Of a stretch of DNA of 64,000 nucleotides, positions 5,705 to 6,969 are shown one piece after another. Source of the stretch: Eledone cirrhosa (Eukaryota). The notes beneath the pieces are model-generated. The model did not search any database, was not told where the DNA came from, and was given only the letters and a program-made list of their open reading frames with translations. The DNA lies in assembly GCA_964016885.1 (NCBI GenBank), contig OZ024740.1, forward strand, positions 148,986,001-149,050,000, given 5' to 3'. How positions within the stretch are numbered: the first letter of the stretch is position 1; each line of letters begins with the position of its first letter. The position numbers were made by a program, and so were the translations under genes.

Positions 5705-5957
5705 AAATGAAAGGTATAGAAAGTATTGTAGCAAGAAGCCAACAGTATTCCATAATATATAAGTGACTATAGCGTCAGAATGGGAAAATACTTAACGTAA
5801 GATGTGGTAAAAATAATTCAAACTCAATTCAAAAAGAATCAGGATATAGATTTATCCAACAGAATTTAGTGAAATCGAGGGAGAAATCAATAGAGCCTTA
5901 CCTCATGATAAAATAAAGTTTAAAATACTCATCCTTCAATTTGGGACAACTACAAAT

Positions 5958-6039
5958 GCTCTGTATAGTCTTGAAAAGACTATTTCACGAAAACTTTCAG
6001 TGGTGATGGTCACGGTTGGAATCCGATCGTCAGCAGAGC
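5958..6039 (-). ncRNA. Type I hammerhead ribozyme (copy 1)
   Basis: Minus strand: GCTCTG-CTGACGA-[T CGGA...TTCG T]-GAA-ATAGTCTT(TTC)AAGACTAT-A-CAGAGC. Stem I is 6 bp, stem III is 8 bp, cleavage triplet AUA. Confidence 0.85.
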
Positions 6040-6556
6040 TCAACACGATAGCCAAATTCTCACTGATTAATATGCCAAAAAGAGAATTTAAAAGCAGGCT
6101 AGTTTAACATCATGTGTGATTATGAAAATAAAACGCACATGTGGAAAAACAGGGCTGGTGACGTCAGAATGAAACGAATGTATGTTTACATGAAACAACA
6201 GTCAAAAACATTCCAAAAAAAACTCTACAATAAGGAGTTCAGCAAATATATATATATATATATATATATATATATATATATATATATATATATATATATA
6301 TATAAATGAAAGGTATAGAAAGTATTGTAGCAAGAAGCCAACAGTATTCCATAATATATAAGTGACTATAGCGTCAAAATGGGAAAATAGCTAACGTAAG
6401 ATGTGGGGAAAATATTCAAACTCAATTCAAAAAGAATCAGGATATATATTTATCCAAAAGAATTTAGTGAAATCCAGGGAGAAATCAATGGAGCCTTACC
6501 TCATGATAAAATAAAGTTTAAAATACTCATCCTTCAATTTGGGACAACTACAAATT

Positions 6557-6637
6557 CTCTGTATAGTCTTGAAAATACTATTTCACGAAAACCTTCAGTG
6601 GTGATGGTCACGGTTGGAATTCGATCGTCAGCAGAGC
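6557..6637 (-). ncRNA. Type I hammerhead ribozyme (copy 2)
   Basis: Same fold: CTCTG/CAGAG stem I, CTGACGA core, stem II base CGAA/TTCG, GAAA, stem III with one mismatch, AUA triplet. Confidence 0.8.
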
Positions 6638-6969
6638 TCAACACGATAGCCAAATTCTCACTGATTAATATGCCAAAAAGGGAATTTAAAAGCAGGCTAG
6701 TTTAACATCATGCGTGATTATGAAAATAAAACGCACATGTGGAAAAACAAGGCTGGTGACGTCAAAATGAGACGAATGTTTGTTTACATGAAACAACAGT
6801 CAAAAACATTCCGAAAAAAACTCTACAATAAGGAGTTCAGCAAATATATATATATATATATATATATATATATATATATATATATATATATATATATATA
6901 TATATATATATATATATATATATATATATATATATATATATATATATATATATATATATAAATATATAT

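What the first reader, a model, noticed from the sequence alone, without database searches (positions are those of the whole stretch)
5705..6844. Tandem HHR dimer predicting a ~598-nt RNA monomer that contains its own (UA)n tract
Seen: two direct copies, each with a well-formed minus-strand HHR (5958-6039, 6557-6637), spaced 598 nt apart with ~57 nt of (TA)n between units. Stem II varies between copies from G-U to A-U, which preserves pairing. Known: tandem HHR repeats are cut to monomers that circularise in retrozymes. Inference: the monomer would carry the microsatellite, which could pair with a nicked (TA)n target and spread TA tracts.
Basis: partly seen in the sequence, partly recalled or inferred. 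Interest (0 to 1): 0.8.

Follow-up and report, generated by a model that had tools for sequence, protein, structure and literature searches.

The report
Truncated dimer of TA-targeting hammerhead retrozyme
These are two shortened copies of a common ~630-base jumping repeat that carries a predicted self-cutting RNA and lands in TA microsatellites; the long TA run between them is likely landing-site DNA rather than part of the element, but the family's ends suggest it is copied from an RNA circle starting at a fixed short UA patch.

Summary
The two copies, 598-nt spacing and minus-strand hammerhead are real. Copy 2 has two private stem mismatches. Both copies belong to a dispersed non-coding family (three subfamilies, 629-637 nt) whose hammerhead shows three compensatory changes. 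The family's head-to-tail junction holds only a ~14-nt TA-rich motif (141 exact hits). The window's junction end occurs 3 times genome-wide, twice here. Both window copies lack the last ~92 nt, which include the most conserved block. So the 598-nt (UA)29 monomer is a local accident, probably an early duplication of one 5'-truncated insertion. The pairing idea survives in reduced form: 144 of 152 sampled insertions begin in (TA)n at one fixed site, 259 nt from the cut. Copies cross the cut site intact (99 of 100 listed in each of two subfamilies), which favours a circular template primed on nicked (TA)n by Penelope-type enzymes. Cleavage, RNA, circles and the partner element are not shown. It is a new member of the animal non-LTR retrozymes. 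The scan noted similar TA-targeted families on other DNA of this genome.

The parts
5493..5705 (.). (TA)n target tract at the fixed start (RNA 3' side) of copy 1; also the 3' flank of a neighbouring Penelope-like element
5706..6245 (-). Copy 1: unit positions 1-543 of the ~635-nt subfamily A monomer; RNA sense is the minus strand; lacks the ~92 nt at the unit's RNA 5' end
5958..6039 (-). Type I hammerhead of copy 1: core intact, stem I 6 bp, stem II U-U plus 3 bp with a 31-nt loop, stem III 7-8 bp; predicted cut 5964/5963
6246..6304 (.). (TA)29.5 tract, standing where the family has ~92 nt of conserved sequence; read as target DNA
6305..6844 (-). Copy 2: same span and same end point as copy 1, 96% identical
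6556..6637 (-). Hammerhead of copy 2: core intact, private mismatches at 6556 (stem I) and 6576 (stem III); predicted cut 6562/6561
6844..6972 (.). (TA)n tract at the truncated end of copy 2
61156..61211 (-). A third, 56-nt stub of the same family in (TA)n; 56 nt is the commonest truncation length

Best explanation
The window holds two equally truncated copies of a ~630-nt non-coding hammerhead repeat that inserts into TA microsatellites, likely one insertion duplicated early together with its TA flank, from a family that is likely copied from a predicted RNA circle by Penelope-type enzymes. Family cycle: (1, shown) many loci hold 1.5 or more head-to-tail units with two whole hammerheads. (2, inferred from conservation and covariation) the minus-strand transcript self-cleaves to a unit-length RNA. 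(3, inferred) it is ligated to a circle. (4, start site shown, chemistry inferred) a Penelope-like endonuclease nicks (TA)n; the 3' end pairs with a ~7-nt UA patch 259 nt downstream of the cut, and reverse transcription runs across the former cut site and round the circle. (5, end points shown) synthesis stops at variable places, often at internal TA-rich patches. The window's copies stopped at position 543, so they lack the conserved 60-nt block beside the priming site. A 598-nt RNA could at most be a local by-product and would probably not be mobilised.
For: Fixed start in (TA)n in 144 of 152 sampled insertions, variable other end. Read depth falls from that end in two unlabelled runs. The hammerhead lies on the strand that this polarity makes the template. 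The 12 core positions were never polymorphic while N7 was U31/C10/G10 of 51. Three pairs change on both sides across subfamilies. Copies read through the cut: 99 of the first 100 of 266 hits in A, only 2 exact TA-truncations there, and 99 of the first 100 of 984 in C. Units of one locus share private variants, e.g. a 30-nt deletion in L180 and 6 substitutions in L186. Predicted circle folds have z -3.5 to -4.6 on 25 shuffles. Window copies share a minor haplotype (7-9 of 57 units), a variant found in only these 2 of 57, and the same end. Local unit duplication is seen in L028, L182 and L187. Unit positions 575-633 are 90% invariant over A/B/C against 71% overall.
Against: Cleavage, transcription and circles are not shown. 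Subfamily A has a U-U at the base of stem II and its consensus does not fold stem II in the minimum-energy structure, so cleavage may be slow and uncut RNA may be the template. Li et al. saw cleavage for 1 of 9 predicted Xenopus dimers. The core-invariance count alone is weak (0 of 12 against 25 of 122). Covarying cells reflect three events, and related sequences can beat the shuffle control. No autonomous partner sharing the ends was found. Shared variants within a locus can also come from conversion or duplication. The window copies differ at two family-polymorphic sites and share only one private variant. Read-through counts include units multiplied after insertion. Most sampled loci were chosen by similarity or by junction, so proportions are biased.
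Confidence: 0.65

Rival explanations
1. One reading: a 598-nt monomer or circle carrying (UA)29 is the mobile unit, pairs with nicked (TA)n through the long tract and spreads TA.
For: The arithmetic holds: cuts at 6562 and 5964 would release 598 nt including the tract. The two copies share origin and end point, and have diverged from each other about as much as from their sub-lineage, as one copying event would give.
Against: No second locus has this junction: 3 exact hits of the end, 2 here. The third is solo and of another sub-lineage. Among 144 loci the only TA-separated same-subfamily pair is the window. The conserved block is missing. The tract would fold on itself as a 27-bp hairpin. The copy 2 hammerhead is damaged.
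Confidence: 0.07
2. The template is uncut linear read-through RNA primed at its UA-rich end. The hammerhead is slow or serves another purpose, and tandem units are regenerated and homogenised by DNA-level duplication and conversion.
For: Read-through of the cut site fits this too. Weak stem II in A. Post-insertion duplications are visible and a 46-unit array could supply long transcripts.
Against: It leaves selection on the catalytic fold unexplained. Linear copying can only shorten a locus, yet each sub-lineage has multi-unit loci whose units carry the same diagnostic variants. There is no pile-up of ends at the upstream cut.
Confidence: 0.22
3. The window's two copies are independent insertions into the same TA tract.
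For: This happens in the family: L010 and L022 have TA-separated neighbours of different subfamilies. Ends at 538-549 recur. The copies differ at two polymorphic sites.
Against: Same minor haplotype, a variant private to the pair, and an identical end seen at only one other locus against 141 read-through junctions.
Confidence: 0.08
4. The dimer is an assembly artefact (two alleles joined at the TA tract).
For: Long TA tracts flank each copy and could mislead assembly. Adjacency was not checked with reads.
Against: The copies differ at 20 positions and 2 indels and the outer flanks are not duplicated.
Confidence: 0.04

Closest known systems
Animal non-LTR retrozymes (Cervera and de la Pena 2020, PMC7229834, parts 2-4 of 6 read; Li, Clavereau and Pollet 2026, bioRxiv 10.64898/2026.07.22.740005, parts 1-3 of 5 read)
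   Same: Non-coding tandem units, each with a type I hammerhead; monomers, dimers and long arrays; predicted self-paired circle. A U-U at the base of stem II is also described for axolotl HHR_Amex2, which cleaved 22% in an hour.
   Different: Unit of 629-637 nt, above the 150-450 bp of the first paper but inside the 51-972 bp of the second. Long stem III and a conserved 31-nt loop II. [quoted passage not shown] Cleavage and circles are not shown here.
Penelope-like elements and their non-autonomous derivatives (Craig et al. 2021, PMC8557442, passages and Introduction read; Cervera and de la Pena 2014, PMC4209133, passages read)
   Same: Partial head-to-tail tandems, 5' truncation, occasional inverted arms, microsatellite insertion bias that hides target duplications, hammerhead on the sense strand. 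A circular template for more-than-unit copying was proposed in 2014.
   Different: No ORF. No autonomous element sharing the ends was identified. The hammerhead is canonical with a stable stem III, not the minimal form.

Membership tests
Type I hammerhead ribozyme | Conserved core CUGANGA / GAAA / UH with three stems, stem I open | tested here: met
   Core present in both window copies; 12 positions non-polymorphic in 51 copies, N7 free; three two-sided changes. Copy 2 has two stem mismatches; Rfam gave no match.
Type I hammerhead ribozyme | Self-cleavage | not testable with these tools
   Needs in vitro transcription.
Animal non-LTR retrozyme | Tandem units with a whole hammerhead in at least two consecutive units | tested here: met
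   30 of 152 sampled insertions span two hammerheads (biased sample); 46 whole units in one array.
Animal non-LTR retrozyme | Non-coding | tested here: met
   Longest stop-to-stop frame in a doubled monomer is 78 codons.
Animal non-LTR retrozyme | Dispersed, multi-copy, mobile | tested here: met
   532 exact end hits for A, 984 exact cut-site hits for C; C about 99.5% identical between loci.
Animal non-LTR retrozyme | Stable self-paired monomer | tested here: met
   Circular fold z -3.5, -4.6 and -4.0 for A, B and C majority sequences, 25 shuffles each; prediction only.
Animal non-LTR retrozyme | Expressed as linear and circular monomer RNA | not testable with these tools
   No run on record as RNA was available to test it.
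Animal non-LTR retrozyme | No LTR, primer-binding site or polypurine tract | not tested
   Not searched for formally; the ends seen are Penelope-like partial tandems.
Non-autonomous Penelope-like element | Fixed 3' end, variable 5' truncation, partial tandem, microsatellite target | tested here: met
Non-autonomous Penelope-like element | Ends related to an autonomous element of the same genome | tested here: inconclusive
   No partner layout in the family loci up to L087. One active element family gave no blastn or model match and only a weak 22-nt likeness at the junction (p=0.02 in A and C, 0.43 in B; six comparisons). Other element families were not surveyed.

The most novel reading that the evidence does not exclude
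The family shows how animal retrozyme circles are primed: a Penelope-type reverse transcriptase binds a conserved 60-nt hairpin block in the circle and uses the adjacent ~7-nt UA patch as a telomerase-like alignment template on nicked (TA)n DNA, then rolls across the ligated ribozyme junction. This gives a minimal 630-nt substrate for reconstituting Penelope target-primed reverse transcription and microsatellite targeting. The window's dimer would be a natural deletion mutant lacking the block.
Probability: 0.4. Interest if true: 0.65.

Novelty: new member of a known kind. Interest (0 to 1): 0.36.

Why it matters
The window's dimer itself is an ordinary decayed copy. The family matters because circular templates for retrozymes and Penelope-like elements have been proposed since 2014 and 2020, with priming left open, and Craig et al. 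name microsatellite bias and tandem formation as unexplained. Here a fixed start out of register with the cut, about 99% read-through of the cut, three covarying subfamilies and a conserved block beside the start make specific, testable predictions. A very young subfamily (C) is the natural test material.

Tried and rejected
Rfam: no match. RNA evidence: no RNA holder listed; the two runs laid are contigs of unrecorded kind and only show DNA-like polarity. Autonomous partner: not found. L063 as a daughter of a 598-nt circle: rejected, other sub-lineage. A second fixed start near unit 546, a lead from scan notes on other families: only 2 hits genome-wide, both already known, so not general. Pile-up of ends at the cut, as a linear cut template predicts: not seen; four insertions ending there are known (L025, L148, L149, L173), two of them fetched for that reason. 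Dimeric circles as the cause of alternating variants in L182 and L187: rejected, because the last units break the pattern. A pseudoknot between loop II and the 5' flank: no two-sided change in A and B and the flank differs in C. Empty-site search for TA gain: nearly all hits were self-matches and no true empty site was found. Target duplications: 2 candidates in 107, one clear. Literature searches listed no paper on TA-targeted retrozyme priming; the library lacks most subscription papers and no supplements were read, so Repbase-type descriptions may exist.

Full report
Observation. The window has (TA)n at 5493-5705, copy 1 at 5706-6245, (TA)29.5 at 6246-6304, copy 2 at 6305-6844 and (TA)n at 6844-6972. 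The copies match at 519 of 539 aligned bases. A scan of both strands of the window for a hammerhead core with stems I and III found only these two sites, on the minus strand, with AUA cut sites at 5964 and 6562. Copy 1 is intact apart from a U-U at the base of stem II. Copy 2 also has private mismatches in stem I (6556) and stem III (6576). In 145 nt of context the hammerhead fold costs about 6 kcal/mol over the minimum-energy fold for both copies. Rfam gave no match.

The family. In the own genome (3.0 Gb) copy 1 drew 3524 candidates, of which 40 were scored. An exact 34-nt end motif has 532 hits. Other loci continue past the point where the window's copies stop, through ~92 more bases, and join the next unit through a 14-nt TA-rich motif, giving a unit of ~635 nt. 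That junction has 141 exact hits, including an array of 46 whole units. The window's end plus TA has 3 hits, two of them the window. The third is a solo copy of another sub-lineage. Two more subfamilies were found: B (630 nt, 87% identical to A) and C (629 nt, 84% identical to A, about 99.5% between loci). The longest stop-to-stop frame in a doubled A monomer is 78 codons. Across 144 distinct loci there were 148 ordinary junctions in 73 loci. Of four other same-strand neighbours, two are TA-separated copies of different subfamilies, one has an unrelated insert, and one is the window. These loci were mostly picked by similarity or junction, so the proportions are not genome-wide. In the least biased sample, the first 30 end-motif hits, 26 are insertion starts outside the window; all 26 are shorter than one unit and 13 end at 56-57, an internal TA-rich patch.

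The ribozyme is under selection. In 51 A and B copies the 12 conserved core positions are not polymorphic, while N7 is U in 31, C in 10 and G in 10; 25 of 122 other columns are polymorphic. Pair counts show G-C to A-U in stem I (A against B), A-U to U-A in stem II within A, and C-G to U-A in stem II (C). These are three events, and the shuffle control ignores relatedness, but slid controls pair far fewer cells (23-51% against 94-96%).

Polarity and priming. Of 152 sampled insertions that begin at unit position 12 or less, 144 have (TA)3 or more at that start; 82 of 108 also have TA at the variable end. The fixed end is the 3' end of the hammerhead strand, as target-primed reverse transcription requires (established knowledge). 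The start coincides with the short UA patch of the junction, 259 nt downstream of the cut. L056 has a target duplication that reaches 9 nt outside the tract, so there the tract pre-existed. Positions 575-633, which lie just 3' of the priming patch on the RNA, are 90% invariant over A, B and C against 71% overall and 82% for the hammerhead, and they are predicted to form a hairpin. The window's copies lack this block.

Template. A linear self-cut monomer would end copying at the cut. Instead 99 of the first 100 of 266 A hits and 99 of the first 100 of 984 C hits read through it. Only 2 A-type copies end there in TA by exact pattern, although the site offers TA microhomology. The pattern misses some copies that end in non-TA flanks, and array units inflate the counts. 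Units of one locus carry the same sub-lineage alleles and often private variants. A selected ribozyme, an intact cut site in the copies and within-locus identity together favour a ligated monomer circle (inference). Uncut linear RNA with DNA-level homogenisation remains possible, since post-insertion duplication is visible in L028, L182 and L187 and stem II of A is weak.

Origin of the window's dimer. The copies share alleles found in 9 and 7 of 57 A units, one variant found in only these two, and the same end. Each has about 10 further differences of its own, two of them at sites polymorphic in the family. The tree puts them in one small unresolved clade, not as strict sisters. The simplest reading is one insertion truncated at 543 and duplicated soon after through its TA flanks, or copied twice in one event. 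A 598-nt RNA is arithmetically possible, but it needs the damaged copy 2 ribozyme, lacks the conserved block, and would fold its UA tract into a 27-bp hairpin. No second locus of that form was found.

Partner and RNA. An abundant young Penelope-like family in the window ends in TA but shows no blastn or model match to the unit and only a weak junction likeness. No family locus showed an ORF in partner position. No RNA run was available.

Comparison. Cervera and de la Pena 2020 (PMC7229834, parts 2-4 of 6) define animal non-LTR retrozymes, show circles in coral, mussel and axolotl, and leave priming open. Li et al. 2026 (parts 1-3 of 5) tie them to Penelope pseudo-LTRs and saw cleavage in 1 of 9 dimers. 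Craig et al. 2021 (PMC8557442, passages and Introduction) report (TA)n bias and non-autonomous tandem derivatives. The 2014 paper (PMC4209133, passages) proposed circular templates. Supplements were not read. Scan notes describe other TA-targeted retrozyme families of 401-591 nt in this genome and none matching this family by sequence; the cut-site tests were run before those notes were seen. Verdict: a new member of a known kind; the specific long-tract claim is not supported; interest 0.36.

Noticed in passing
window 2300-5492 (+): Decayed Penelope-like element (RT and GIY-YIG pieces, weak Pfam matches) whose 3' end abuts the same TA tract as copy 1, tail to tail.
   Followed up: partly
window 54917-60416: Young, abundant Penelope-like family (150 scored hits at 99-100%, 60,682 candidates; Nematis-like by recall) with tandem and inverted pieces and a TA-flanked 3' end. 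Its 3' UTR has a hammerhead-like core near 60265-60310 with a 4-bp stem II and a GUC site but no clear stem I (read by eye).
   Followed up: partly
window 6970-7322 and 7665-7789: Inverted repeat with 146-nt arms at 98% directly beside the finding, plus a further 125-nt inverted match.
   Followed up: no
window about 10060-11179 (-): Fragment of another Penelope-like element (Neptune-like by recall; no Pfam match).
   Followed up: no
G000:C2:378112536-378142132 (L074-L077): Array of 46 whole units plus one partial of the family, TA-flanked, mean pairwise identity 93%.
   Followed up: partly
L180; L181: Arrays with altered period (599 nt by a shared 30-nt deletion inside the conserved block; ~642 nt by a shared insertion). 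L180 shows that a unit missing part of the block can still occur in tandem.
   Followed up: partly
L085 and L161: Two insertions of different subfamilies start after (TA)n at the same internal position (~546), one as an inverted arm; only these 2 by exact pattern.
   Followed up: yes
window about 5990-6020 (-), loop II: The 31-nt loop II is largely conserved across all three subfamilies; role unexplained.
   Followed up: partly
window 25295-29270, 29827-33663, 35478-40310: Non-LTR RT remnants, helicase-like (Helitron-like) pieces and a 1082-codon open RT frame; labels recalled from the translations, not tested.
   Followed up: no
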